A stretch of DNA of 64,000 bases from an uncultured Planctomycetota bacterium (GTDB taxonomy: Bacteria; Planctomycetota; Planctomycetia; Isosphaerales; Isosphaeraceae). The notes beneath the pieces were generated by a model that searched no databases, was not told where the DNA came from, and worked only from the letters and a program-made list of their open reading frames with translations. The position numbers and the translations under genes were made by a program. The stretch lies in assembly GCA_963845755.1 (NCBI GenBank), contig CAWJTV010000042.1, forward strand, positions 342,997 to 406,996, given 5' to 3'. Below, piece after piece: positions 42,586 to 63,999 of this stretch (the stretch's first letter is position 1; the number at the start of each line of letters is the position of its first letter).

Positions 42586-42812
42586 GAATGGCACGAGCTT
42601 AGGCGCAAATCGCTATTGAGATTGGTCTTGCGAACACAGCCTTTTCCTGCTCCTTGCGCTTGATTCTCGAGGTCTCCAGGTGGACCCCTACGTTTCCCGT
42701 CTAGTCTACTAATGCTCATGCGAACAAATTACTGTAATGCCCGCGGGCAATTCGCGTCATGAGGACACAAATCATTTTTCAAAAACAACTTACGCCTAAG
42801 CCGGTGCCATTC
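42586..42812. mobile_element. IS4-type MITE (227 bp), imperfect terminal IRs
   Basis: gaatggcacgagcttaggcgcaa ... ttacgcctaagccggtgccattc; flanks are hairpin arms gcttcggtc / gaccgaag. Confidence 0.75.
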
Positions 42813-51685: not shown

Positions 51686-51858
51686 CTAATTCGCGAACGT
51701 CTTTCGGCCCCTTGACGCTGGGTCTCACGTCGCTTCATCCGCATGCTGTTGTCCCCTCGATCCTTTCGGTCGAAGGTCAGCGGAACGTTTTACCCGCCGT
51801 CTTCCAGCGGGGTCGGGGCATTCCCGACAGGACCGGACCAACCTTTGCCACGGCGCAC
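51686..51858 (-). ncRNA. Group II intron 5' fragment (about 170 nt of domain I), copy 3
   Basis: Starts GTGCGCCGTGGCAAAGG on the minus strand; aligns with 57919-58062 and continues into 56977-57003. Confidence 0.8.
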
Positions 51859-51965
51859 CCATTCGTCGATCAGACCGAAGCGCGCGAGCAGGCTGCGGAT
51901 CAGGACATTTCTGGAGCACCCTCATTATGAACGCCTGGCCACAAGGCCGAGTCAGAGTGAGGTGC

Positions 51966-52495
51966 TTACGATCGTTTGCGCTTCGTCGACGTGCGGGCTT
52001 GAGGAACGGCCTCGGTCTTGCTCGGCTTCCCTCTTCCTGCCCCCGCCGCCGCACGGGCGGATTCCATGTATTCAATGTACTTCCGTGCCGGCACCCGGCG
52101 GATCGCCTCGCCGACCACATCGAGCGCCAGGTCGTCGAGTTTCTTGAACCGCACACACGACTTGCCCATGTTCAGCTTCTTTCCAGCCTTTGCCCACGCA
52201 TCTTCAAACCAGGACCGAAGCGCCTCATGGCCGTAGATGCACATGAGGTACACCGACATGTACCCCTTCTGAGACGCAAGGGCGGCGAATGGCAAGGGCT
52301 GTTTCGGGTCGCAGTGATACCCCGCCGGATACACCCGGTGCGGGACGTAGTATCCGATCATCCCGTACTGAACCCCTCTTCATACCCCTCGTCCAGATTG
52401 TCCAGAATCACCTTCCGCACCACCTCGATCGCCCTCCGCCGATCCTCCGGCAACGTCGCCAGGTACGCCTCCACAGTCGTCGCTGCACTTTTCAT
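51966..52495 (-). CDS. DUF1801 (YdhG-like) protein (frameshifted)
   Basis: ATTVEAYLATLPEDRR...MIGYYVPH...LASQKGYMSVYL...MGKSCVRFKKLDDL. Confidence 0.85.
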
Positions 52496-52745
52496 CGAGG
52501 TACTCCGCTTTGTACGTGGGTAGTCGGGACAGCGCTTTGTCCGTTTGTGAAGCCCGAAGTGGCCATGCGCGGCTCTCGGTCGCGAGATCCGCTCGCCGCA
52601 TTGTGGCCAACTCACGGCATTGACCATCGTAGCACGTTGGGACGGTCCGGATGTATCCGGCGTCACCTATGTCGCTTTGCAGCCGGATCGACCACGGACG
52701 CGGTGCCATGGAGAGGCTGCCTTGCGCGCTCCGGTCCGACGACAC

Positions 52746-52974
52746 GAATGGCACTAGCTTAAGCGTAACTCATTTTCAGAAAACGGGTTGCGGTTCGATG
52801 TTTTTCCCATCAATAGTACTCAGGAGGATATGAGGCTGGGTCCATGTGGCTTGATTTGAGGCTAAACTCTCTATCAATATTACAATCAAATATTTACAAT
52901 CGTTGAAGATCTGTCTGGCGAGCCACGCTTAAACTCCAATGGCATAAGCTGTTACGCTTAAGCTAGTGCCATTC
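52746..52974. mobile_element. IS4-type MITE (229 bp) with perfect 24-bp IRs and 12-bp target duplication
   Basis: GAATGGCACTAGCTTAAGCGTAAC ... GTTACGCTTAAGCTAGTGCCATTC; gtccgacgacac at 52734-52745 and 52975-52986. Confidence 0.9.
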
Positions 52975-53064
52975 GTCCGACGACACCGAAGCGCCAACGC
53001 CTGTGTCTGTTTACTGAAGAAGTTCGGCGAGCCGCGCGACCCCACCGAAGCTCCGGCAGGAGCG

Positions 53065-53352
53065 TCAGGCGCCGACTTCAGCCGGCGAGATGCCGGCCTG
53101 CCCGCAGGCCCGTCGCCACTCCTGCTCGCCGATGTCGTCGTCCGAGTAATCGGTGCGCGTCCGCTCGACGACGTCGTAGGTCGGCGCCTCGGAGCAACCC
53201 CAGTGGCCGCCGTCACGCAGCCGCGCGACCGCCGCCTCGGCTGACTCGCTCGTCGCATGGAACTGCCGCTCGTAGCCCCAGGCGCCGTGGTTGCTCCGGC
53301 CGTCGAGGCATCCGTCGCCGATCCGTGCCGCGATCTCGTAGAGCTTCACCAT
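53065..53352 (-). CDS. Small hypothetical protein
   Basis: Strong AGGAGG RBS, 95-aa ORF with GC-rich third codon positions; no family recognised. Confidence 0.6.
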   Translation of the reverse strand: MVKLYEIAARIGDGCLDGRSNHGAWGYERQFHATSESAEAAVARLRDGGHWGCSEAPTYDVVERTRTDYSDDDIGEQEWRRACGQAGISPAEVGA

Positions 53353-53865
53353 GATGGTCCTCCTGTTGCCGAGCCCGCGATTCCCTTAATGATCCGGGCG
53401 GGTTCTCCGGCAGTCAAGGCTGCCCCGACTCATCCCAACTCATTCCGCCTGACCGCCCCGAGGCACGATCGACGTCTGCCCGTTCACGAGTCGTGGGCGA
53501 CAAGCGTACAGAATTGCGTCGAGCCACGATATGACTTCGTAAGTGCGTCGGTCGGTCCGATCGAAGCACGCTAGGCGTCTGCGCGTTTGGTAGTGAAACG
53601 GGATGACGTAGGACAAAACCTGCGCCGGGCAACACAGGTCGGGTGATACAAAGGGACCCGCAAAGGCATGCCGAGGCGCTCCGGGACCAATAAGAGTCGA
53701 TCCACGCGGGTTCGTGTGCGTGGGGATCACTGTTGGTTGATGTCGACATCCGCAGTCGCGCCCGCCTCAGAAAGAGCCCGGCATACATGCTACAATACCA
53801 GGGCATGTAGCCGACAAATCGGCTTATCTTCTTTCAATTAAATCACAGCTTTGAGGGGACGATCC

Positions 53866-54960
53866 TCATTCGGGAAGGCGGTACTCCCGCACCTCTGCCG
53901 GCTGGTCTTGTCTCACCGGGACGCCGACATAAATGTTCCGCCGATCGACGGCCAGTGCTCCTGTCCGGCTGTGGGGCGGCAATGGTGAGCCGCCCAACCG
54001 AGAGGGACTGCCTGACCCGTCGATGGCGAACAGGTCGAGCGAGGCCCCGGCCCCGCCCGGGTCGCCCGAAGTCGGCAGTTCCCCGCCCCCGATCACGGCG
54101 ACCAATCCCGACTGGGCATCGAAGAACAGATCATCGGATTGGGGAGGACAGGGGGTTTCCCCGAGGATCGAACCATCGCGCATGCTCAGGCTCATGAGGA
54201 CGGCCGGCTTCCTCGCCACGATGAATAGGCGATCGTGGGATGGGTCCAACGACATCGGGAAGTTGCCCGCCCGACCGGTGAGCTTTCGCTCCCAGAGAAG
54301 TTCACCGGTCGAGCGTTTCAGCCCGAACACGGTGCCGTCTGCCGCCGACCGTTTGCCCGCCGGGACGTTGGCGAAAATCGCATCGTCGGACGGGTGAAGC
54401 TGAAAACCCTCCGGCATTCGCGGCAAGCTCAGCTTTAGACCGGGCTGCATGGTGTCGCCGTCGAAGCTGGCCAGGCCACCAGGCCCTTCGCCGCCGAAGC
54501 TCACCCAGATCTTGCCGTCGCGGGCGACCCGGACATTGTCGGCATCATCGCCGACCGCCGCCGATCTCGCGGACTTCGGAACGCCGGTCTCGAAACGGCT
54601 CACCCTGCCGTCGCCGCCGGTCGCGACATAGACGAAACCGCCAGCGACCGCGACACCCTGGGGTTCGGGAAGCTTGTCGATCGTCCCGATTTTTTTCCCG
54701 GCGTCGAGGTCGATCACCTCCAGCGAACCGTTCGCGACGCAGGCGATGAACAGCCTCTTCGTCGCGGGATCGTAGGCCATGTGATCGATCCGGCCCGTGA
54801 TTCCCGTCCGATCCGAAGGGCCGCGGACCCCATCCAGTGCGAAGGTGCGACTGAGCACCGGAGCGGAGACTTTCCCCTCCGGCTTGCTGGGAGCCGGAGG
54901 AGGCTGAGGGCTGGCACCCAGCAGTGCCGACAGGATGAGAAAGATGACGACGCGACCCAT
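53866..54960 (-). CDS. Secreted YncE-like beta-propeller protein
   Basis: Signal peptide MGRVVIFLILSALL; GRIDHMAYD, PQGV, DADNVR, PEGFQL, GNFPM, DDLFFD. Confidence 0.8.
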   Translation of the reverse strand: MGRVVIFLILSALLGASPQPPPAPSKPEGKVSAPVLSRTFALDGVRGPSDRTGITGRIDHMAYDPATKRLFIACVANGSLEVIDLDAGKKIGTIDKLPEPQGVAVAGGFVYVATGGDGRVSRFETGVPKSARSAAVGDDADNVRVARDGKIWVSFGGEGPGGLASFDGDTMQPGLKLSLPRMPEGFQLHPSDDAIFANVPAGKRSAADGTVFGLKRSTGELLWERKLTGRAGNFPMSLDPSHDRLFIVARKPAVLMSLSMRDGSILGETPCPPQSDDLFFDAQSGLVAVIGGGELPTSGDPGGAGASLDLFAIDGSGSPSRLGGSPLPPHSRTGALAVDRRNIYVGVPVRQDQPAEVREYRLPE

Positions 54961-54982
54961 CGAACCACCTCCCGCCTCGAGA

Positions 54983-56020
54983 TCAGTACGCATCTGAGGA
55001 CACCACTTCGCTGCCGGCAACCGTCCCCATGGCCCGCCAGACCATCCCGTTGATGGTACTCTTGACGAACCGCACGCTGCCATCGCCCAGCAGGGTGTTG
55101 ACGCCGGCGGGGTGATAACTGCGGGCATTGATCGCCGAGAAGGTCGGCCCGCCGTTCTCCTCGTTCTTGCCGTTGAGGTCCAGGTCCATGCCCGGATAGA
55201 ACGACCGGCCGATGATTGCCTTGTTCGGAGGCCAGGCCGTTGTGAACCCCGCCGCATGCACATGCCCGTCGGACCACTCGGTGTGGAACTCCGCCTGATT
55301 CTCAGTGACGCACACCCCGTTGTCGTATTCCGGCGCCACCTGAAACGGGTCGGCGTACGGGCTCGGGATGTTGTTCGGGTTGTTGACCGACGGCAGCGTG
55401 GTGAAGCGGCAGTTCGACGAGGTCTGATACGCCTTCACCTCGGCGGCGAACAACGTCTGGCTCAACCCGTCGGTGATCGCCGCCAGCCGCAGGCTCCGGT
55501 TGGGGCCGAACGCCTGGCGATTATACGGCCCGTTGAACCCACCCCAGACGAACCAGTCGCCCCCGCACACCCCGTAATTGATCACACCCGAGAGGCCATA
55601 ATCGTGCGAGGAAACCTGCGGCTTGATCTCGCTCGGGCAGATGAACGCGTTCACCGTCAACGAGATGACCGTGGAATTGGTGGGGTCCTCCTTGAAGACG
55701 CTGAGGTTCGCCGCGTTGAACAACGAGGTCCCCTCCATGTAGGGCAAGAGCCGGGCCTGGGCGCTCCAGCCGGTGTCGTAGTAGACCGTGTTGCTGGCCC
55801 CCAGCAGGGACATCGTCATGGGCAGCGCACCGGCGGCCGTCTCATAGTTATGCAAGGCCAGGCCGATCTGCTTCAGGTTGTTGGTGCACTGGATGCGGCG
55901 GGCGGCCTCGCGCGCCGCCTGAACCGCCGGTAGCAGCAGGGCGATCAGCAGGGCGATAATCGCGATCACCACCAGCAGCTCGATGAGCGTGAAGCCGCGA
56001 TGCGTTCCAGTCTTCGACAT
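54983..56020 (-). CDS. DUF1559 prepilin-type protein
   Basis: [43 protein letters not shown]. Confidence 0.95.
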
Positions 56021-56147
56021 GGGATCCTCTTTCTCACGACGAGGTAGACCCTTTCCCTGCGGGCTGGGACCGGCAGCTCGCACGGAGTTTAGCACTCCGT
56101 CCCGGGATCGTCGGCCCCGTACGTCGGGCGAACGGAGGCCGTTGACT

Positions 56148-56177
56148 AGCCTATTACGTTCGTCAGATAGATGTCAA
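56148..56177 (-). promoter_or_regulatory. Candidate sigma70 promoter for the DUF1559-YncE pair
   Basis: TTGACA-N18-TAGGCT on the minus strand, about 130 bp upstream of the start codon. Confidence 0.45.
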
Positions 56178-56244
56178 GCATCCTCCGATGGAATTCATTG
56201 CCGACGGGCTGCATGGGCAAAATTTCCAGACTACAATTATAGTT

Positions 56245-56742
56245 TCATTTGTTCAATATATATATGTCATCGTCACTGAGGCCCACCACCCGCCGCCCTT
56301 CGGCTTCCAGGCGGTCATGCGGCAGATTCACGACCGACCGAACGAATTCCGGCTTGAGCATGAACGTCAGCACACGGCCGGATTTTTCATCGCGGATCAC
56401 CGTCTTCATCGCTTCCGCCGTCGCTTCCTCGACGCGGAGGTTGAGCTTGCCCGGACTGGCCCCAGTCGCCGCCTGGACGCCATCGGCGATGCAGGAATAC
56501 TGCACCTGGGCCGGACAGCGATGGACGACCTGGAGCGTCAAGGCGTGCCTCGGCAAACCCAGCTCCTTCAACGCCCGCTCGCCCATGCGATAGCCGGCCA
56601 CCGCCCATGGGCCGGCCGCGCCGTGAATCTCTCGGACTCGGGCCAACCGCTCCGCCACCGCCGAGTCATCGCCGGCCCAGCCGGAACCGGCCAGTACGCT
56701 CGAAGCAAGCACCATCAACGCCAAGCCGCATCGCCGCACCAT
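56245..56742 (-). CDS. FmdE-family protein with signal peptide
   Basis: IHGAAGPWAVAGYRMG, QYSCIADGVQAATGASPGKLNL; GGAGGT RBS. Confidence 0.8.
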   Translation of the reverse strand: MVRRCGLALMVLASSVLAGSGWAGDDSAVAERLARVREIHGAAGPWAVAGYRMGERALKELGLPRHALTLQVVHRCPAQVQYSCIADGVQAATGASPGKLNLRVEEATAEAMKTVIRDEKSGRVLTFMLKPEFVRSVVNLPHDRLEAEGRRVVGLSDDDIYILNK

Positions 56743-56756
56743 GGGATGCCACCTCC

Positions 56757-58062
56757 TTAGGCGATCCCATGGTTGTCGGCCAGGTCCGGTCCACGTTTAG
56801 GGCCTTCGTTCATCCCTTGCCTCTGCTCACAGCAGGGTGTGTCCTGCCGGAAGATCACGGGGGCGAATGGCCTACCCCCGTGAGACAGGAATCCGGGTTT
56901 CACCGTCATTCCCGACGGTGATCGAACATCCCCCTGGGACTCAAGTTCCAGCAATCCAGCCTTAACCCTGCGTGACCTAACTCGCGACCGACTCTCGGCC
57001 CTAAGAGCGCTCGGAAAAAATGAATCCACTGGCACGCTGTCTGCTCTTGAGTCCTTCGGAGAGTGATCTCCCGAACCGAAGGAGGACCACCATGAAACCC
57101 CTTGTCTCCGATGCGCTGTGGAAGCGCCTGGAGCCCTTGCTGCCACCCCCGCCTCCGCGCCGCTTCCGCTTCCCGGGACGCAAACCCCTGGACTACCGCA
57201 AGATCCTCACCGGCATCTTGTTCGTGCTCAAGACCGGCATCGCCTGGGACGACTTGCCCGCCGACCTCGGCTGCGGCTGCGGCAAGACCTGCCGGTCCTA
57301 CCTGCAGGCGTGGCAGCAGGCCGGTGTCTGGCGCCAGTTGCACGCCGTCTTGCTGGCCGAGCTCAACGGCGCTGACGCGATCGACTGGGAGCGGGCCGCT
57401 GATCGACGCCTCCTTCGCCAAGGCCCCGGAAGGGGGCGAGGATACCGGCCCGAATCCGACGGACCGGAGCAAATCCGGCAGCAAGCACCACGTGATGACC
57501 GACGCCCAAGGCGTGCCGCTGGCGGCGACGGTGACCGCCGCCAACGTCCCCGAGATCACCCAGGTCTTCACGACGCTCGACGACATGCCGCCGGTGGGCG
57601 GCAAGCCGGGGCCGAAGCGGCAGAAGCCCGACCGCTTGCAGGGGGATCGGGGCTACGACTCGGAACCGGTGCGGCAGGGTTTGCGCAGGCCGGGGGACCA
57701 CGCCGGTGCTGGCGGCCCGCAATACGGAGCACGGCAGCGGTTTGGGCAAGTCCCGCTGGTACGTAGAGCGGACCATCGCGTGGCTGCACTCCTTCGGCCG
57801 GCTGCGCCGCCGTTTGGATCGGCTCACCGAGATTCAAGACGCGTTCCTCAAGTTAGCATGTTCCTTGATCTGTTTGAGGCTCCTGGGCCAGTGAACTCAT
57901 TTTTTCCGAGCATTGCTAGAGCATGGGCCTCACGTCGCTTCATCCGCATGCTGTTGTCCTCTCAATCCTTTCGGACGAAGGTCAGCGGATCGTTTGACCC
58001 GCCTTCTTCCAGCGGGGTCGGGCACTCCCGGCAAGACCAGACAAACCTTTGCCACGGCGCAC
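56757..58062 (-). ncRNA. Group II intron 5' fragment (about 390 nt, DI to about DII), copy 2, interrupted by IS5
   Basis: Starts GTGCG at 58062; 56757-56956 aligns with 62101-62301 of the RT-bearing intron; EBS1 loop at 56864-56871, EBS2 at 56920-56925. Confidence 0.85.
57004..57915 (+). mobile_element. IS5-family element; transposase 57092-57894 (frameshifted)
   Basis: IRs gctcggaaaaaatga.t.cactggc at both ends, CTA(A/G) flanks; GILFVLKTGIAW, IDAS, GDRGYDS, RWYVERTIAWL. Confidence 0.92.
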
Positions 58063-58208
58063 GCATTCGTCGATCCGACCGACACGCGCGACCAAGTGGC
58101 CTGTCGAAGACTCGCTCGCCGCAAGCGCTAAGGTCCGGGTTTGACCGAGTTCTGCCTGCGGGCCAAGGCTTTCTCGGTAATCCAGCGGTGCCGCCATGTC
58201 CACCGCGC

Positions 58209-59054
58209 TCACTTTTCGAGTTTCTCGCGTTTCGCCGCTTCGAGTTCCGCGGGATTCGAGGAACCGAACCCGACCGCCGCTGTGAACTCCGCGGCCGCTC
58301 GAGAAGGCGGGAACGTCGCGCCACACCTCACGCCCGTCGAGGCGCAGGTAGAGATCCATGTTCGAGAACCCAGCGACGGCATACTCCCAGCGATACCCCG
58401 CGCCCGACTTGCGGGCCTCGATGAGCAGGAGGAGTTCCGGGTCGGTCTGACTGGCAAAAAGCGAACAGCGCGCCGCCGCGTGAGATCGAGCGAGTCGGTC
58501 GTGTCGTAACGATGCAACGGCGTCGTCAGCAGCCGCAAGTGAGAGCGCACGTTCTTGCGGTCGACCAGGTCGGCGCTGAACCGTTCGGCAAGCCGGCGGG
58601 CTTGCCGGTCGCGCGCCCGACGGCGTGTCGGCGGGCACCGGGGCATTCGGGATCGGCTTCCATTCCAACCCCGGGGCGGTGGCGTTGAACAACACCCCAA
58701 TGGGCGATTCGGCCCGCAGCGGAGACGCGGACAGCGAATGCCACTCGTTGTTCAGGCTATAGCCTCCCGTCCCCTCTCAAACAAGAAGACGTCACAAATC
58801 GCCGCCGGTCGCCCCGAGGGCTCAACCCATAGGAAGACCGAGCCCTTCGAGCTCCCTTGGACATCCTGGGCCCGATGCAACACCGGTTCCTTGAGCGGAG
58901 CAAACGGATGATCGGGATCGGCCGTCGCGTACACTTTCGCTGCCATCACGTGCCGCTTGGCGATCACGGCCCAAGGGCGAGTCTTGACGTCCTTTTCTTG
59001 CGTCTGGGCCTGTCCGGCGATGACCAGCCCGACCGTCAAGCAAATGCCGAGCAT
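58209..59054 (-). CDS. Secreted planctomycete-type conserved hypothetical protein (frameshifted)
   Basis: Signal peptide; EPVL, GSVFLW..GRPAAI, EWHSLS, PG.EWKPIP.AP.PA, LRLLTTPL.RY, TDPELLLLIEAR. Confidence 0.7.
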
Positions 59055-59615
59055 CACGGCCTCAGTCTGGTGCGTTTTTCGGGGGGTCGAGAGACGCCGT
59101 GGCTTCGCCTGCGAGCAGTTCGCCAGCCAGCCAAAACGCATTGTCTTGTGCAGCGGGAGCGGCTGTCAAGAAGATTGCAGCGCCGATCGTGGCATGTCTT
59201 GAGCGCCGATCGCACTCTCGTCCGAGGCGGATAAATTGACGGAAGTCAGGGTGGGTCCGGCGGCGATTCTCCCTGCGGCCTATCGTCAGGGCGGTTCGTC
59301 CAGGAACAACGAGCCAGACCAGGCTCGCGCCGACGACAACAGCAGCGACCAGGGACGGCTCGGCGCCGTGCGACAGGGGCCGATCGGCACCGCGAGCCCG
59401 ACCACCTTTTTCCAGGTCATCAGCGCTCTCTCACAAGACCCGGCGGGACAGGGAACTCGACCGCTTGCGCGTCCTTCGATGGCCACGCACGCGGCTCTTT
59501 TGAGCGCTGGAACGCGCCCTCACCAGACAGAGCAAGCCCGCCCAATCGGCTGCGCGTGTCGGCCTGCCAGACCGGTACGCGTTCACACCTCGGTCAACAA
59601 TTGTCCGAGATTATC

Positions 59616-59920
59616 ACTCGTTCCCACTCTCCGCGAGGGAATGCCGTCTGCGACGCTCCGCGTCGTCTTGGTCTTTGATTTCCAGCGACCCGTCGGTTGT
59701 CATCGAAACCCAGGACTCCCTCTCGGCAGGGTTGCGGGCGCCGGAGAATCTCCCAGGGGTCGGATCGAAGAGGAGTCCCGCTCCACCGGGTTCTTGGGAG
59801 ATGTCGCTCAACTTCTGGCTCATCATCGCGTCGGTCTCAAGGATTCTCGAAGGTCTGACTTCGAAGATGACAACGCCGAGCGTCGCAGACGGCATTCCCT
59901 CGCGGAGAGTGGGAAGGAGT
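59616..59920. repeat. REP/REPIN-like pair of about 52-bp inverted repeats
   Basis: actcgttcccactctccgcgagggaatgccgtctgcgacgctccgcgtcgtc pairs with gacaacgccgagcgtcgcagacggcattccctcgcggagagtgggaaggagt. Confidence 0.8.
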
Positions 59921-60056
59921 CATCGCGTTCCGACGGGGTAATCGGCGGTCCCGCTGCCGAATGTCGCATGGGCTAGCATTGATCTTGCCTGATGCCTAAA
60001 AAACAGGCGTCTTACAACTGTCGACCAGGGTGTGAACCGGTACGTCGAAGCTAGTG

Positions 60057-60146
60057 ATGAGGTAGGCGGCCAGCCCCTTGATCTCAAGGGAATCCAACCG
60101 CCCCCTCCCGAACCGGACAGGCACGTTTTCGTGCATCCGGCTCTCC
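60057..60146 (-). ncRNA. Group II intron domains V and VI
   Basis: AGC catalytic triad hairpin and a DVI stem with the branch-point A near the terminal AT. Confidence 0.9.
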
Positions 60147-60168
60147 AGACACAGGATCTACATTTGTG

Positions 60169-62016
60169 TCACGGTCCAACCCGGTATGCCAGGTCCGCCA
60201 GTCGGAGGCCATCATATTCTCCTCGGTGGATCTTACGGTGGCACTCTCGGCAGACGGGCACTTGCTTCCGGTTCTGGAGTCGCATCAGCCAGGCAAACCC
60301 ACCGACAGGTTTGCCCTCCATCTTTCGGATGTGACGGACGTGGTGCATCTGCACCCCGACCGTTGTTTCGCAGATGATGCATGGGTGGTCCAGGCGGGAC
60401 CTTGTCCGGAATCGGACGTGCATCTCCAGTGGGTCGGTTTGATCTCTTCCCGTTAGAAATGCCGTGGGGTTCCGGGTCCAGTCGGAGTTGGCTTTGAAGA
60501 AGGTGTTCCGTTCCTTCCCCTCGCCGTCTTTCCAGTTGAATTGCAGAGTGCGTCCGTGTTCGCAGAGGAGCTGCTTAACGGGCTTCTGCAACTTGTGGGC
60601 TAAGGTCTTCGCAAGTGACAAATGCAGGATGTACTGGATACGGCTCATGGAGGCGAAGTTGTCAGCAAACCTGTAGTAGTTCAACAGCCCCCAATTGGTG
60701 CTGTTGAACAGTTCGATGATGTGCTTCACCTCCAGGCAGACCCACGCTGTCTTGGATCGGGCGATGCCCTCACCGTCACAGAAGCCCTTCTGGTGAAGAC
60801 GCTTGACCAGTTTCCTGATCGGCGCTCGCATCAGCGGGCTCCACCCCGTACACCGGCGCCGGTAGTGCCGCCGTTGGTTGTGGCAGTGGGTAACCTTGGG
60901 CTGTGGGTTGACGGCCCCCACCTGAAGCCGCGTCCCGAGAAAGAAGGCCTCCTCGGTCTTGGCGTGAGTGACGACCGTCTTTTCCTGGCTGAGTTGCAGT
61001 TTCAGCCTGTCCCATAGGAACGCCTGAATCTCGTCCTTGATCTGTTCGGCCAGGGACCTCGGCCCCGTGACGCCGACGATCCAATCGTCTGCATATCTGA
61101 TGTATTTGACTCTGACGAAGCCAGGGTCAAACGTGTCCATCGACGGGAGAGATCGCATCTGTTTCGTCAAAGCGCGAATCTCCGGCGTCATGATCCCACC
61201 TGACCGTTTCAACGCTCGCTGCCTGCGATAGTTGATCCGGTGATACTCGGGGCTGTCCTTCCGCTTGCTGCCCTTCTCGTACTTCTGCTGTAGTCCCTCG
61301 ACGAAGAGGTCGAGTTCGTGCAGGTAGATGTTGGCGAGGATAGGGCTGGCCACGCTCCCCTGCGGGGTCCCGATAAACGAGGCCCCCGGTTCCTTCCTCC
61401 ATAGGTAGCCTGCCCGGAGTGCTTTCCAGATCAGGCCGATGAAGCGTTCGTCCGAGATCCTCTTCCGGATCAGGGAAACCAGGACGTGGTGATCGATCTC
61501 GTCGAAGCAGGATTTTATATCCCCTTCGATGATCCACGTCACACCAGACCACTTGGTCCTGAACTCATGCAGGGCCGTGTGAGTCCCTCGACCAGGCCGA
61601 AAACCATGGCTACAGTCGCTAAAGGTAGGCCCTTTCGGACTGTCGTAGATCGCTTCGAGGATCACATGGATGACCTCTTGGACGATCTTGTCCCTTGGGG
61701 ATGAGATGCCGAGAGGCCGCATCTTGCCATTTGCCTTGGGAATGTATTCCCGCCGCGAAGGCTTGAATTGGAAACCCTCGTCTCGCAGGGTCGCCACGAT
61801 GTCGTCGATGGCATCCATGGAGAACCCATCGAGAGTCATCCCGTCGGTGCCAGGAGTCAAGTTCCCGGGAGCGGATTTGATTTTCTCATACGCGACGATG
61901 TAGAGATCCGTCTTGTAGAGGAGTCGATACAGATCCGCGTTGACCCAGTTGAGGTCCGTGTTGCACTTCCGCAGTGCTTCAAGCCTGAGTAGGGCTGAAT
62001 GACTCATCCGAGTCAC
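60169..62016 (-). CDS. ltrA: Intron-encoded RT / maturase / HNH endonuclease (LtrA-like), intact
   Basis: TPGTDG, IPKANGKMRPLGI, SHGFRPGRG, EGDIKSCFD, GTPQGS, YIRYADD, YYRFADN, CIIC..HHVRH..CRECHRKIH. Confidence 0.95.
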   Translation of the reverse strand: MTRMSHSALLRLEALRKCNTDLNWVNADLYRLLYKTDLYIVAYEKIKSAPGNLTPGTDGMTLDGFSMDAIDDIVATLRDEGFQFKPSRREYIPKANGKMRPLGISSPRDKIVQEVIHVILEAIYDSPKGPTFSDCSHGFRPGRGTHTALHEFRTKWSGVTWIIEGDIKSCFDEIDHHVLVSLIRKRISDERFIGLIWKALRAGYLWRKEPGASFIGTPQGSVASPILANIYLHELDLFVEGLQQKYEKGSKRKDSPEYHRINYRRQRALKRSGGIMTPEIRALTKQMRSLPSMDTFDPGFVRVKYIRYADDWIVGVTGPRSLAEQIKDEIQAFLWDRLKLQLSQEKTVVTHAKTEEAFFLGTRLQVGAVNPQPKVTHCHNQRRHYRRRCTGWSPLMRAPIRKLVKRLHQKGFCDGEGIARSKTAWVCLEVKHIIELFNSTNWGLLNYYRFADNFASMSRIQYILHLSLAKTLAHKLQKPVKQLLCEHGRTLQFNWKDGEGKERNTFFKANSDWTRNPTAFLTGRDQTDPLEMHVRFRTRSRLDHPCIICETTVGVQMHHVRHIRKMEGKPVGGFAWLMRLQNRKQVPVCRECHRKIHRGEYDGLRLADLAYRVGP

Positions 62017-62301
62017 CCCTTTCTTGGTGAAGCCCTGTGTCCTGTCCCCCTTGGGCCGATGCCTACTACGGGGACTCTGTCGCCTTGGGCATTGCTGCCG
62101 TTAGGCGATCCCGTGGTTGTCGGTCAGGTCCGGTCCACGTTGAGGGCCTCCGTTCATCCCTTGCCCCTGCTCATTGCAGGGTGTGTCCTGCCGGAAGATC
62201 ACGGAGGTGAATGGCATGCCCCCGTGAGACAGGAATCCGGGTTTCAGCGTCATTCCCGGCGGTGATCGGTCACACCTACTGGGACTGGAGTTCAAGCAAT
62301 C

Positions 62302-63999
62302 GGGTGCAATCGCGCCGATGCCAGCGATTATGCGGCATTTGAGGTCCTTCCCTTCGCTGTAGTCCCTTGAGTCCGCATCACGAGTGTCGCCTTCGATCCC
62401 AGGTAGGATTGATACACCTCGCTCCAGACCCCGCTCAAGTGGATCACCCGTAGGTTGACGATCCACTGACCACTCTCGACTTTCCAGCTCATCCCCGACT
62501 GCTTCAGCCGCTGGGTGAACACCGTCTTGCACGCCGCCTCCGTCACCCCGCTGCCGATCGGCAAGTGATCCCGGCGATAGCGGACATAATCCAGCCAGCG
62601 CATTCGTTTTCGCAAGTAGGCGTAGGCACTGCGGTATTGCTCTCGCTTGGCTGCCGACGCGATGATCCGCCGCCGGCGCAGGGCCGCCGCCGAATGCAGG
62701 ACTCGGTAGATCCCCCGCGGCTTCTCCTTCAGCCACCGCCGCATCCGCCGCGCCCAACTCGCCCCCGCCCGCGCGTCGGAGAACAACGCCTCGGACAGCT
62801 TGGTGATGTATTCGCAGGCATGATAATAATCGATCACCCAGTGCCACTTCAGTCGTCAACCGAGGTGATGAGGATCGCTCATCCGCTTCAGCACCCGGCG
62901 ATAGTATCGGGTCTGGTGGTTGCCGCCATCGGTGATGTAGGCCAGCCGCGGCAGCGGTCCGGTCCAACCGCGAAACACCGCCTCGATCAGGGCCGTCAAT
63001 TGCCCCGACAAGACCTCCTGACCCGGCTCGGGCATCCGCCCCAGGTAGACCGTCCCCAGCCGTCGCCCCTTGCGGTCGTAGACCGAGACCGTCGCCGTGG
63101 CCCCCTCGCGGTAACAGGCCTGACCGCGGATCGGCAGCATCAGCCCGTCGCGCCCCGCGGCCAGCACCGGCCTGCGGGAGCCCGTGGACCGGTCTGCCCG
63201 TCCCAGCCAGGAGAGCAGTTGGGCGACTTGGGCCTCTTGACGGTGGACCTCCATCCCCGCCGCCACACCGGCGATCACCGCTCGCAAGGTCTCAGCCGAC
63301 CACTGCACCCCATGATCGTGGCGCAACGCCACCAGAACTGCGTCCTGAGAGGACATCACCGCCGCGTGGGTGGCCCGCTCGGCGAGGGCCGGCGTCGCCC
63401 GGCCGGACTCCAGACCGAGCTGGATCTCCAGCGGGAAGATCGAGGACTCGACGCCGTGGACGTCCTGGTACAACATCCGCCACAGCGTGATCGTGCCGAA
63501 GGTGGTGGCCACCGAGCGATTGGGGGTCTTGGAGCGGCGGCGATACCAGGTCCCGCCGGACTCGATCTGGGCGGGCATGTCCTTGCGGTCGTGAGGCTCG
63601 AGGTGGTTGAAGGTCCATTCGACGATGATCCGGCCGAGTTCGCGGAGCAACTCCTCCAATCGGGTCTCGAAGCGGTGGGCGGTTTGAGGCGTGGGGTCGG
63701 CCCGGCGGAAGTGGACGATGAGCCGCCCGAGTTCGGTGATCACCGGGACCAGGCGAGCGGTGAGCGGGAGCAAGGACGTGGCGAAATGCGTTGCTGTGAG
63801 GAGTCGGGAGCACGTAGCATGGTCCATCGAGGTGGCCTTTCCTGTTGCGAGGACAGAGCTTGTTACACACTGTCACTTCACAGGAGAGGCCCCTCGACTT
63901 TCAAGCGATCCTCTTCCCAAGGCGGCCGACTCAGGCCAAGTCAACACCGAAAACGTGGGAAAACAGGCTGAAATCCGCGGCACCAGCGCGATTGCACCC
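62302..63999 (-). mobile_element. ISKra4/ISLre2 (UPF0236)-like IS inserted in intron domain I; transposase 63827-62328 (frameshifted)
   Basis: IRs gggtgcaatcgcgc at 62302 and gcgcgattgcaccc ending at 63999; GRDG, ITDGG, IDYYHA, LPIGSGVTEAACK...RLKQSGMSW. Confidence 0.88.

What the first reader, a model, noticed from the sequence alone, without database searches (positions are those of the whole stretch)
51686..62301. Group II intron that homes into the terminal inverted repeat of IS4-type elements
Seen: both intron 5' ends are preceded on the minus strand by ...GATCGAC-GAATG(G/C)|GTGCG (51859+, 58063+). The one 3' end is followed by |CACTAGCTT (60056 downward). Joined, these exons spell GAATGG^CACTAGCTT, exactly the start of the MITE IR GAATGGCACTAGCTTAAG at 52746 and 52974. 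The intron loop CACGGGGG-..(T/G)GCCATTC.-CC(C/T)CCGTG (GAATGG at 62209-62214 and 56865-56870 on +) is complementary to GAATGG|C(A). Established: IIA introns use EBS1 for the last 6 exon nt and the adjacent delta base for the first 3' exon nt, which fits. Inference: the intron's specific niche is a transposon end, so it would spread to every IS4/MITE copy and split the end the transposase needs. Introns inside IS coding regions are known; I do not know of end-targeting being described.
Basis: partly seen in the sequence, partly recalled or inferred. Interest (0 to 1): 0.9.

Follow-up and report, generated by a model that had tools for sequence, protein, structure and literature searches.

The report
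Mobile intron homing to transposon tips
A self-splicing mobile intron in this soil planctomycete always lands six bases inside the end of a small transposon that itself sits in a palindromic repeat; a rhizobial intron is already known to target transposon ends, but here the intron reads the junction of the two elements and seems to have switched to it from the bare palindrome.

Summary
A 2438-nt group II intron with an LtrA-like protein (RT, maturase, HNH) has 13 5' ends and 7 3' ends in this genome. All lie between bases 6 and 7 of the inverted repeat GAATGG^CACTAGCTT of IS4-family MITEs.

The target is composite. EBS1 and delta pair with the transposon tip. EBS2 pairs with the target-site duplication outside the transposon, which is the loop of a roughly 36-bp palindromic repeat that the IS4 element inserts into. 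Sites carrying ATCGAC at -12..-7 are occupied in 10 of 13 cases, against 4 of 24 unoccupied ends.

Of 46 metagenome relatives, 39 sit in the bare palindrome, with EBS1 complementary to its 3' arm. The window's lineage therefore looks like a retargeted derivative.

End-targeting is already published for RmInt2 in the inverted repeats of ISRm17 (PMC4615759). Earlier notes of this scan also report similar cases on other DNA. The finding is a new variant of a known kind.

The claim that the intron spreads to every copy is not supported: 13 of 37 ends are occupied, and the only autonomous IS copy is empty.

The parts
60057..62301 (-). Intron copy 1, bases 194-2438 of the 2438-nt intron; 99.8% identical to the intact reference copy C7:43430-45867
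   Evidence: blastn; sequence
60169..62016 (-). Intron-encoded protein, 615 aa: RT, maturase (X) and HNH endonuclease domains
   Evidence: Pfam RVT_1, Intron_maturas2 and AI2M-like_HNH; best solved relative is LtrA, E 3.5e-96 over residues 18-596
60057..60145 (-). Domains V and VI, ending at the 3' splice site ..CCUCAU
   Evidence: Rfam RF00029, 62 bits
62209..62215 (-). EBS1 CCATTC (62214-62209) plus delta G (62215), in an 11-nt terminal loop
62262..62269 (-). EBS2 region (CCGATCAC in this copy, TCGATCAC in the reference copy); pairs with GTGATCGA at exon -15..-8
62302..63999 (-). ISKra4-like insertion sequence interrupting domain I of copy 1. Its 8-bp duplication is GATTGCTT. The contig ends one base beyond it
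60048..60056 (-). 3' exon of copy 1: CACTAGCTT, which is bases 7-15 of the IS4-type inverted repeat. Beyond it a different ~470-bp repeat begins
56757..58062 (-). Intron copy 2, an old fragment 89-94% identical to the reference. Bases 1-140 lie at 58062-57924, a ~920-bp IS5-type element at ~57923-57003, and bases 148-394 at 57002-56757, after which the copy is truncated
58063..58090 (-). 5' exon of copy 2: palindrome arm GTGTCGGT, then loop/duplication CGGATCGAC, then IS tip GAATGC
51686..51858 (-). Intron copy 3, a fragment of bases 1-173. It is identical to C9:311655-311827 together with its flank, so the two are one segmental duplication
51859..51886 (-). 5' exon of copy 3: GCGCTTCGGT, then CTGATCGAC, then GAATGG
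52746..52974 (.). Intron-free 229-bp MITE with the repeat GAATGGCACTAGCTTAAGCGTAAC at both ends. It is flanked by the 12-bp duplication GTGTCGTCGGAC (52734-52745 and 52975-52986) and the palindrome arms
42586..42812 (.). A second intron-free MITE of the same family in the window (C42:385582-385808)

Best explanation
Three mobile layers are nested here. (1) A dispersed palindromic repeat of about 36 bp has the form TTGCGCGCTTCG-GT-N7-8-AC-CGAAGCGCGCAA. (2) An IS4-family insertion sequence (1830 bp, one copy) and its 215-230-bp MITEs insert into the loop of this palindrome and duplicate 11-12 bp. Every element tip GAATGG is therefore preceded by one palindrome arm plus the loop. (3) An LtrA-like (IIA-type) group II intron with an RT-maturase-HNH protein retrohomes into that junction. 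EBS2 (intron 225-232) pairs with the loop sequence GTGATCGA at -15..-8. EBS1 (281-286) pairs with the tip GAATGG at -6..-1. Delta G280 (and U279) pairs with C+1 (and A+2). Insertion falls between bases 6 and 7 of the inverted repeat. What is shown: the junctions, the pairings and their covariation, and the bias in which ends are occupied. What is inferred: that the mechanism is retrohoming by reverse splicing followed by HNH cleavage in the 3' exon, that the split repeat no longer serves the transposase, and that the lineage descends from introns homing to the intact palindrome, having changed EBS1 from CGCTTC to CCATTC after the IS replaced the 3' arm.
For: Junctions: 13 of 13 5' ends and 7 of 7 3' ends lie at the same site. 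The same 5' junction appears in two other genomes searched (G001 at two sites, G021), in one named MAG (L027), in one metagenome contig (L065) and in loose ends of two soil runs. The element tip is fixed at the G of GAATGG by four pairs of a sister MITE family with 11-bp duplications directly abutting it, and by the autonomous IS with its 12-bp duplication. The transposase matches the IS4 equivalog NF033592 at 212.7 bits against a cut-off of 115. Fifty empty palindromes carry the same loops. For IBS2, ATCGAC at -12..-7 occurs in 10 of 13 occupied ends against 4 of 24 unoccupied ends (Fisher p 8.5e-4; 2.4e-3 with duplicates removed). In 5 of 5 complete intron-bearing MITEs the intron is at the end that carries it. 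Copy C6 has a different EBS2 (CCGAC) that matches its GTCGTCGG loop. For EBS1 and EBS2 covariation across 25 junctions, no permutation reached the observed pairing (0 of 5000 and 0 of 3000). The EBS1 stem is 95.4% paired with 2 compensatory pairs. Introns are 99.9-100% identical to each other, while their host MITE bodies are mostly 58-70% alike, and the intron sits at either MITE end. This means the intron invaded pre-existing MITEs. For retargeting, 39 of 46 metagenome relatives sit in the bare palindrome, with EBS1 complementary to its 3' arm. The IS-tip clade is nested among them.
Against: No splicing, lariat or intron-free allele was seen, and no function was assayed. The distal 5' exon is the same at every IS end, so intron need and IS target preference cannot be separated there. 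Three occupied ends lack ATCGAC, and four unoccupied ends carry it. The tree is midpoint-rooted, covers only about 370 nt, supports the IS-tip clade at only 0.759, and places one IS-tip copy (G001 C15) outside that clade. The direction of the target switch is therefore not secure. Related sequences are not independent, so the permutation counts overstate the evidence. IIA membership rests on the protein lineage and on delta adjacency, not on a full domain I model. No Rfam D1-D4 family matched at E up to 1.
Confidence: 0.8

Rival explanations
1. The intron recognises only the IS4 inverted repeat. The conserved flank is there merely because the IS always inserts into the same palindrome.
For: Every IS or MITE end carries the arm and loop whether occupied or not. 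RmInt2's whole target is said to lie within the inverted repeats of ISRm17.
Against: Occupancy follows the loop sequence (10 of 13 against 4 of 24). The intron is at the ATCGAC end in 5 of 5 MITEs. EBS2 covaries with the loop in C6 and in the metagenome relatives. The sister MITE family has GAATGG+C at its tip but no palindrome flank, and none of its 11 ends is occupied. Its 3' exon also differs, so this control is not clean.
Confidence: 0.12
2. The copies spread as intron-plus-MITE composites moved by the IS4 transposase or by segmental duplication, not by intron homing.
For: One pair (C9 and window copy 3) is a duplication with identical flanks.
Against: The other 11 loci have unrelated sequence beyond about -28. 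Host MITE bodies are mostly 58-70% alike, while the introns are 99.9-100% identical and sit at either end. The split end lacks repeat bases 7-24 next to the tip.
Confidence: 0.04
3. GAATGG is not the transposon tip. The real element includes the arm and loop, so the intron sits about 30 nt inside a longer inverted repeat.
For: Three MITE pairs have the same loop orientation, or unrelated loops, on both sides instead of a direct duplication (C34:526502/526726, C42:136862/137088, C42:385582/385808). One unrelated element has its repeat extending outside GAATGG (C20:223595/223820).
Against: Most pairs, and the autonomous IS, show true direct duplications. Fifty empty palindromes have the same loops. 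The sister family has 11-bp duplications of unrelated sequence abutting GAATG.
Confidence: 0.04

Closest known systems
RmInt2 of Sinorhizobium meliloti GR4 in the inverted repeats of ISRm17 (Martinez-Rodriguez et al. 2014, RNA Biol, PMC4615759; passages and sections 6 and 8 read)
   Same: A group II intron whose natural homing sites are the terminal inverted repeats of an insertion sequence. This gives two sites per element in opposite orientations. Recognition is by EBS-IBS pairing plus a few protein-read positions.
   Different: RmInt2 is class D/IIB, lacks the endonuclease domain, and its copies are described as lying within the repeats. Here the protein is LtrA-like with HNH, the host is an IS4-family MITE, only 6 nt of the 5' exon belong to the element, and IBS2 lies in the flanking duplication or palindrome. 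Relatives here target the bare palindrome.
Ll.LtrB / LtrA of Lactococcus lactis (IIA, mitochondrial-like class)
   Same: LtrA is the best solved relative of the protein (E 3.5e-96, full length). The layout of IBS2, a one-base linker, IBS1 and a delta next to EBS1 is also shared; this layout of Ll.LtrB is recalled, not checked here.
   Different: Ll.LtrB sits in a relaxase gene, not in a transposon end.
RmInt1 in ISRm2011-2 and Sr.md.I1 in an IS66-type transposase ORF (PMC4615759)
   Same: Introns that use multicopy insertion sequences as homing sites.
   Different: Their targets lie inside the IS body or ORF, not at the tip.
REP-targeting insertion sequences, including the IS4-family ISRm22 (Tobes and Pareja 2006, PMC1525189; passages read)
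   Same: An IS4-family element that inserts specifically into extragenic palindromes, as the host IS and MITEs do here.
   Different: That paper lists a Pseudomonas putida group II intron as REP-associated in only 2 of 9 copies and describes no pairing. No Y1/RAYT gene lies next to the palindromes here.
IS4321/IS5075 (IS1111 family) targeting the terminal repeats of Tn21-family transposons (Partridge and Hall 2003; seen only as a title in a reference list)
   Same: One mobile element whose specific niche is the terminal repeat of another.
   Different: It is a DNA transposon with protein-based recognition, not an RNA-guided retroelement.

Membership tests
Group II intron | Domain V/VI catalytic hairpins and a 5' GUGCG | tested here: met
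   RF00029 at 62 bits against a threshold of 40. GTGCG is present at 12 of 13 5' ends; C36 has a 1-nt deletion.
Group II intron | Intron-encoded RT/maturase in domain IV | tested here: met
   RVT_1, Intron_maturas2 and HNH domains. TIGR04416 scores 252 bits, below its 300-bit cut-off.
Group II intron | EBS1/EBS2 complementary to the 5' exon | tested here: met
   Covariation across 25 junctions; no permutation reached the observed pairing.
Group II intron | Self-splicing and retrohoming activity | not testable with these tools
   No joint skipping the intron was found in the runs laid.
IIA / mitochondrial-like class | Protein of the LtrA lineage with a D/En domain | tested here: met
   LtrA E 3.5e-96, against 9.4e-32 and weaker for IIB and IIC proteins. 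AI2M-like HNH domain.
IIA / mitochondrial-like class | Delta next to EBS1 pairs with exon +1 | tested here: met
   G280 against C+1 at 7 of 7 3' junctions. No covariation could be tested, because no 3' exons of relatives were available.
IIA / mitochondrial-like class | IIA-specific domain I architecture | not tested
   Only the EBS1 hairpin and two neighbouring helices were checked. No Rfam D1-D4 model matched.
IS4 family (host element) | DDE transposase of the IS4 type | tested here: met
   NF033592 at 212.7 bits against a cut-off of 115; PF01609.
IS4 family (host element) | Terminal inverted repeats and a direct target duplication | tested here: met
   GAATGGCACTAGCTT at both ends and a 12-bp duplication in C47:276274-278103.
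MITE | Short, non-coding, shares its ends with an autonomous IS, flanked by duplications | tested here: met
   215-230 bp, first 15 nt of the repeat shared, 11-12-bp duplications in most pairs. Absence of an ORF is judged from size only.
REP/RAYT system (the palindrome) | Palindromic repeats associated with a Y1 (RAYT) transposase | tested here: not met
   Ten Y1_Tnp matches in the genome, none with a family palindrome within 1 kb. The repeat is therefore called REP-like only.
Introns that home to IS inverted repeats (RmInt2 type) | All or nearly all copies at one position within an IS terminal repeat | tested here: met
   13 of 13 and 7 of 7 junctions.
Introns that home to IS inverted repeats (RmInt2 type) | Class D, endonuclease-less protein | tested here: not met
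   LtrA-like with HNH. The habit is the same but the lineage is different.

The most novel reading that the evidence does not exclude
The intron family's ancestral homing site is the palindromic repeat itself. When an IS4 element colonised the loop of that palindrome, it destroyed the site by replacing the 3' arm GAAGCG with its own tip GAATGG. An intron variant then followed with two EBS1 substitutions (CGCTTC to CCATTC), keeping EBS2 and the protein's reading of the arm. The homing site therefore exists only where one mobile element has inserted into another. By splitting the repeat 6 nt from its tip, the intron freezes the MITE copies it occupies.
Probability: 0.45. Interest if true: 0.65.

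Novelty: new variant of a known kind. Interest (0 to 1): 0.45.

Why it matters
This case shows in natural sequence how an RNA-guided retroelement can follow a change in its target with as few as two guide-base substitutions. It also shows that a homing site can be a junction that exists only after another element has transposed. It extends IS-end targeting from one rhizobial class D intron to an endonuclease-bearing LtrA-like lineage in planctomycetes and soil metagenomes. The system has four layers to dissect: palindrome, MITE, intron, and the IS or serine-recombinase elements inside the intron. If the split end really blocks transposition, the intron acts as a brake on the MITE family. The matched sets of EBS and IBS variants form a natural data set for targetron-type design rules.

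Tried and rejected
- **Rfam with permissive thresholds on the intact copy.** Only domain V/VI families matched, so no class call could be made from RNA models.
- **Whole domain I-III fold.** The minimum-free-energy fold is not better than shuffles (z -1.2). Only the EBS1 hairpin is used from it.
- **Literature.** Five full-text searches did not turn up an intron targeting an IS end. Passages checked in PMC8269217, PMC6052338 and PMC3205602 were irrelevant.
- **GTDB representative scan.** Three loci were returned, and L025 is a chance match with no intron behind it.
- **Weak DNA matches.** Matches in G014 and G015 were not examined.
- **Sequencing runs.** Contigs of three soil DNA runs and one RNA run were laid. 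No joint skipping the intron was seen, meaning no spliced exons and no empty allele. This shows nothing either way. The RNA contigs are only 90-95% alike and may be DNA carry-over or other organisms.
- **RAYT link.** No link between a Y1 transposase and the palindrome was found.
- **Fixed-register EBS2 scoring.** It was weak (4.16 of 8 against 3.68) because the linker is 1 or 2 nt. A flexible register was needed.
- **Ends left out.** Three degenerate IS-like ends (C3:15124, C5:525588, C33:309462) were left out of the count of unoccupied ends. None carries ATCGAC.
- **Supplementary Figure S1 of PMC4615759** (positions within the ISRm17 repeats) was not opened.


Full report
**What is in the window.**
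Read on the minus strand, the region holds three copies of one group II intron.
- Copy 1 (62301-60057) is intron bases 194-2438. It carries an intact 615-aa ORF (62016-60169) and domains V/VI (60145-60057; Rfam RF00029, 62 bits).
- Copy 2 (58062-56757) is an older 5' fragment, 89-94% identical to the reference. It is interrupted by a ~920-bp IS5-type element and truncated at intron base 394.
- Copy 3 (51858-51686) is a 173-nt 5' fragment.

The protein has RVT_1, Intron_maturas2 and AI2M-like HNH domains. Its best solved relative by far is LtrA of Ll.LtrB (E 3.5e-96 over residues 18-596). IIB and IIC proteins score 9.4e-32 or weaker. This places the protein in the mitochondrial-like lineage, which goes with IIA ribozymes; that lineage-to-structure link is established knowledge recalled here, not tested.

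**Genome-wide test.**
The window is C42:342997-406996 of a 14.27-Mb, 49-contig assembly. The reference intron is 2438 nt (C7:43430-45867). The copies are as follows:
- Three are intact (C7 and two in C34, 99.9-100% identical).
- Three are full length but interrupted: C11 by a 2.45-kb large serine recombinase element, C36 by an IS21-type element, and window copy 1 by an ISKra4-like IS.
- One is an ORF-less deletion derivative of 799 nt (C45).
- Six are fragments.

A loose pattern search finds 13 5' ends of the family. All 13 follow ..TCGGT-N7-8-AC-GAATGG (11 GAATGG, 1 GAATGC, 1 GATTGG). Beyond about -28 the flanks are unrelated, except for the C9 and C42 pair, which is a duplication. All 7 true 3' ends are followed by CA(C/T)(T/G)AGCTT.

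However, C28 ends with GAATGG plus intron bases 1-199. The interrupting IS makes an 8-bp duplication (GATCAACT at its complete copy in C33). In the window this duplication would be GATTGCTT (intron 194-201). That fits the last bases of C28 and the single T at window 64000. The predicted GAATGG exon of copy 1 is therefore very probably there.

**What the target is.**
GAATGGCACTAGCTT is the tip of an IS4-family element. The one autonomous copy (C47:276274-278103, 1830 bp) has this sequence at both ends and a 12-bp duplication. Its 504-aa transposase matches the NCBIfam IS4 equivalog at 212.7 bits against a cut-off of 115.

The remaining copies are 215-230-bp MITEs. There are 24 intron-free ends of this family in the genome. 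A sister MITE family (GAATG(G/C)CATTAAGTTAAG, 11 ends) has 11-bp duplications of unrelated sequence directly abutting the G of GAATG in four pairs. This fixes the element tip. The intron therefore sits between bases 6 and 7 of the inverted repeat.

Every end of the first family is preceded by (TTGCGC)GCTTCG plus GT-N7-8-AC. The genome also holds 50 intron-free, IS-free palindromes of the form ..TCGG-T-N7-8-A-CCGA.. with the same loops, often as doublets about 40 bp apart. The IS and MITEs thus insert into the loop of a dispersed REP-like palindrome and duplicate it. This habit is already reported for the IS4-family ISRm22 (PMC1525189, passages read). No Y1/RAYT gene lies within 1 kb of such a palindrome, so I call the repeat REP-like only.

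**The homing site is a junction.**
- EBS1 (CCATTC, intron 281-286) lies in the 11-nt terminal loop of an 8-bp hairpin. The G on its 5' side faces exon +1 C, and U279 faces A+2.
- A second patch, TCGATCAC (intron 225-232), is complementary to GTGATCGA at exon -15..-8. One unpaired base (-7) lies before IBS1.

That exon stretch is the duplicated loop of the palindrome, outside the transposon. Three lines of evidence show it matters.
1. ATCGAC at -12..-7 is present at 10 of 13 occupied ends but only 4 of 24 unoccupied ends (Fisher p 8.5e-4; 9 of 12 against 4 of 22, p 2.4e-3, after removing duplicated loci).
2. In 5 of 5 complete intron-bearing MITEs the intron is at the end that reads ATCGAC, and the other end lacks it.
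3. Copy C6 has a different EBS2 patch (CCGACCGCC) and sits next to the matching GTCGTCGG loop.

None of the 11 ends of the sister MITE family is occupied. These ends start GAATGG+C but have no palindrome flank. Their 3' exon also differs, so this control is not clean.

**Order of events.**
Intron copies are 99.9-100% identical. The MITE bodies that host them are mostly 58-70% alike. Two pairs are 83% and 93% alike only when one is flipped, meaning the intron sits at opposite ends of the same MITE type. The intron therefore invaded pre-existing, diverged MITEs one by one. It did not travel with them. Only 13 of 37 ends are occupied, and both ends of the autonomous IS are empty.

**Relatives elsewhere.**
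In 41 related genomes searched by DNA, the intron was found in G001 (same genus) at ..CAATCAGAC-GAATGG| and ..GTCGTCGGAC-GAATGG|, and in G021 at ..GTGTCGGAC-GCATGG|.

A scan of species-representative genomes with the intron's first 23 nt gave three loci:
- a Singulisphaera record with the same junction as the G021 locus, counted once;
- an Isosphaerales MAG with ..GTGATCGAC-GAATGG|;
- one chance match.

The organism is therefore probably an Isosphaeraceae-type planctomycete.

The same pattern in metagenome contigs gave 46 loci:
- 1 has the IS-tip junction (L065).
- 6 have the 3' end of another intron copy directly upstream.
- 39 end in the palindrome itself: ..GT-loop-ACCGA(A/C)GCG| or ..ACCGGAGC|. 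One of these shows only 6 nt of flank.

In an alignment of intron bases 197-330 from 32 copies, mean column identity is 87%. Variation is concentrated in two patches, the EBS2 and EBS1 sites. The palindrome-type copies read CGCTTC, CGCGTC or GCTTCG where the window lineage reads CCATTC. They read CCGACAC, CCGCCAC, CCGAC or TCGATCAC at EBS2, in step with their exons.

Over 25 junctions (the 6 tandem flanks and 1 short flank were dropped), the results were:

| Site | Register | Observed pairing | Permuted pairing | Permutations reaching observed |
|---|---|---|---|---|
| EBS1-IBS1 | fixed | 5.32 of 6 | 3.52 | 0 of 5000 |
| EBS1-IBS1 | flexible | 5.80 | 5.00 | 0 of 3000 |
| EBS2-IBS2 | flexible | 6.20 of 7 | 5.71 | 0 of 3000 |

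The sequences are related, so these counts overstate independence. The EBS1 stem is 95.4% paired with two compensatory pairs, and slid controls fall to 31-52%.

**Direction of change (inference).**
The tree uses about 370 nt with both EBS patches masked and is midpoint-rooted. It puts 9 of 10 IS-tip copies in one clade (support 0.759). That clade lies inside a larger clade (0.962) that also holds palindrome-type copies, and a second large clade is palindrome-type or tandem only.

The displaced arm reads GAAGCG where the IS tip reads GAATGG. The matching EBS1 forms, CGCTTC and CCATTC, differ at two positions. IS-tip copies also share both EBS2 types with palindrome-type relatives. The simplest reading is that an intron of the palindrome followed the IS that had split its site. 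The root is not secured, and one IS-tip copy (G001 C15) falls outside the clade.

**Comparison with what is known.**
I read the passages and sections 6 and 8. They state that all RmInt2 copies lie within the inverted repeats of ISRm17. They also state that this gives two sites per IS, and the target (-16 to +7) was defined by selection experiments. The habit is therefore known and experimentally validated. The scan's notes also report other cases on other DNA, which I did not check.

What differs here is the following:
- the intron lineage (LtrA-like with HNH, against class D without endonuclease);
- the host (IS4-family MITEs);
- the position, only 6 nt inside the tip, so that IBS2 and the distal 5' exon are supplied by the IS's own insertion site;
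- the evidence that sister introns use the undisturbed palindrome.

My five literature searches found no description of such a composite or switched target. The library covers open-access papers and bioRxiv only.

**Not shown.**
No splicing, mobility or effect on MITE transposition was tested. Contigs of three soil DNA runs carry near-identical intron sequence. In two of them an arm-loop-GAATGG exon is seen with other upstream sequence. No joint that skips the intron was seen.

Noticed in passing
L074 (G000:C11:964900-967650), insertion between intron bases ~989 and 993: A 2.45-kb element encoding a 681-aa large serine recombinase (Resolvase, Recombinase and Zn_ribbon_recom domains) interrupts the RT gene of an otherwise full-length intron copy. 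Earlier notes of this scan describe such elements in this genome.
   Followed up: partly
L075 (G000:C36:46350-49180), insertion at intron bases ~1818-1824: An IS21-type element (IstB-like ATPase plus an rve/Mu-transposase_C protein) interrupts another full-length intron copy. That copy also has a 1-nt deletion in its 5' GUGCG.
   Followed up: partly
L076 (G000:C45:4626-5424): An ORF-less 799-nt derivative of the intron (bases 1-528 joined to 2168-2438) sits at the same kind of MITE junction. It could be mobilised in trans. RNA-library contigs of run X15 show similar ORF-less joints (756/765 to 2566 on L001) at 90-95% likeness.
   Followed up: no
Metagenome loci L046, L052, L053, L054, L069, L072: In 6 of 46 loci the intron's 5' end is preceded directly by the 3' end of another copy (..GGCCGCCTAC(C/T)TCAT|GTGCG). 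These are head-to-tail tandem introns with no exon between them. The cause is unknown.
   Followed up: no
G000: C5:535206-535436, C5:820755-820984, C12:183482-183711, C25:139863-140092 and solo ends: A sister MITE family (~230 bp, repeat GAATG(G/C)CATTAAGTTAAG) has 11-bp duplications starting GGGAC. It is not in palindromes and never carries the intron.
   Followed up: partly
window 59575-60046: A ~470-bp repeat with its own inverted ends (GTTCACACC..GTCGACA(A/G)TTG) has at least four ~91% copies elsewhere (C40, C28, C30, C5). It starts right after the 9-nt remnant of the IS4-type repeat downstream of intron copy 1. The rest of that MITE is missing.
   Followed up: partly
window 57003-57923: A ~920-bp IS5-type element (DUF4096 protein, probably frameshifted) lies inside intron copy 2. 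Its 52-nt end is 100% identical at about 20 other places in the genome.
   Followed up: partly
G000 contigs C8, C39, C13, C42, C7: The 50 empty palindromes are unevenly spread (8 on the 52-kb contig C8) and often come as doublets 39-43 bp apart. The repeat may itself be part of a small mobile element.
   Followed up: no
window 51686-52986 and G000:C9:310496-311827: A segmental duplication of more than 1 kb carries a MITE plus the 173-nt intron fragment with identical flanks. The C9 MITE has one degenerate end.
   Followed up: partly
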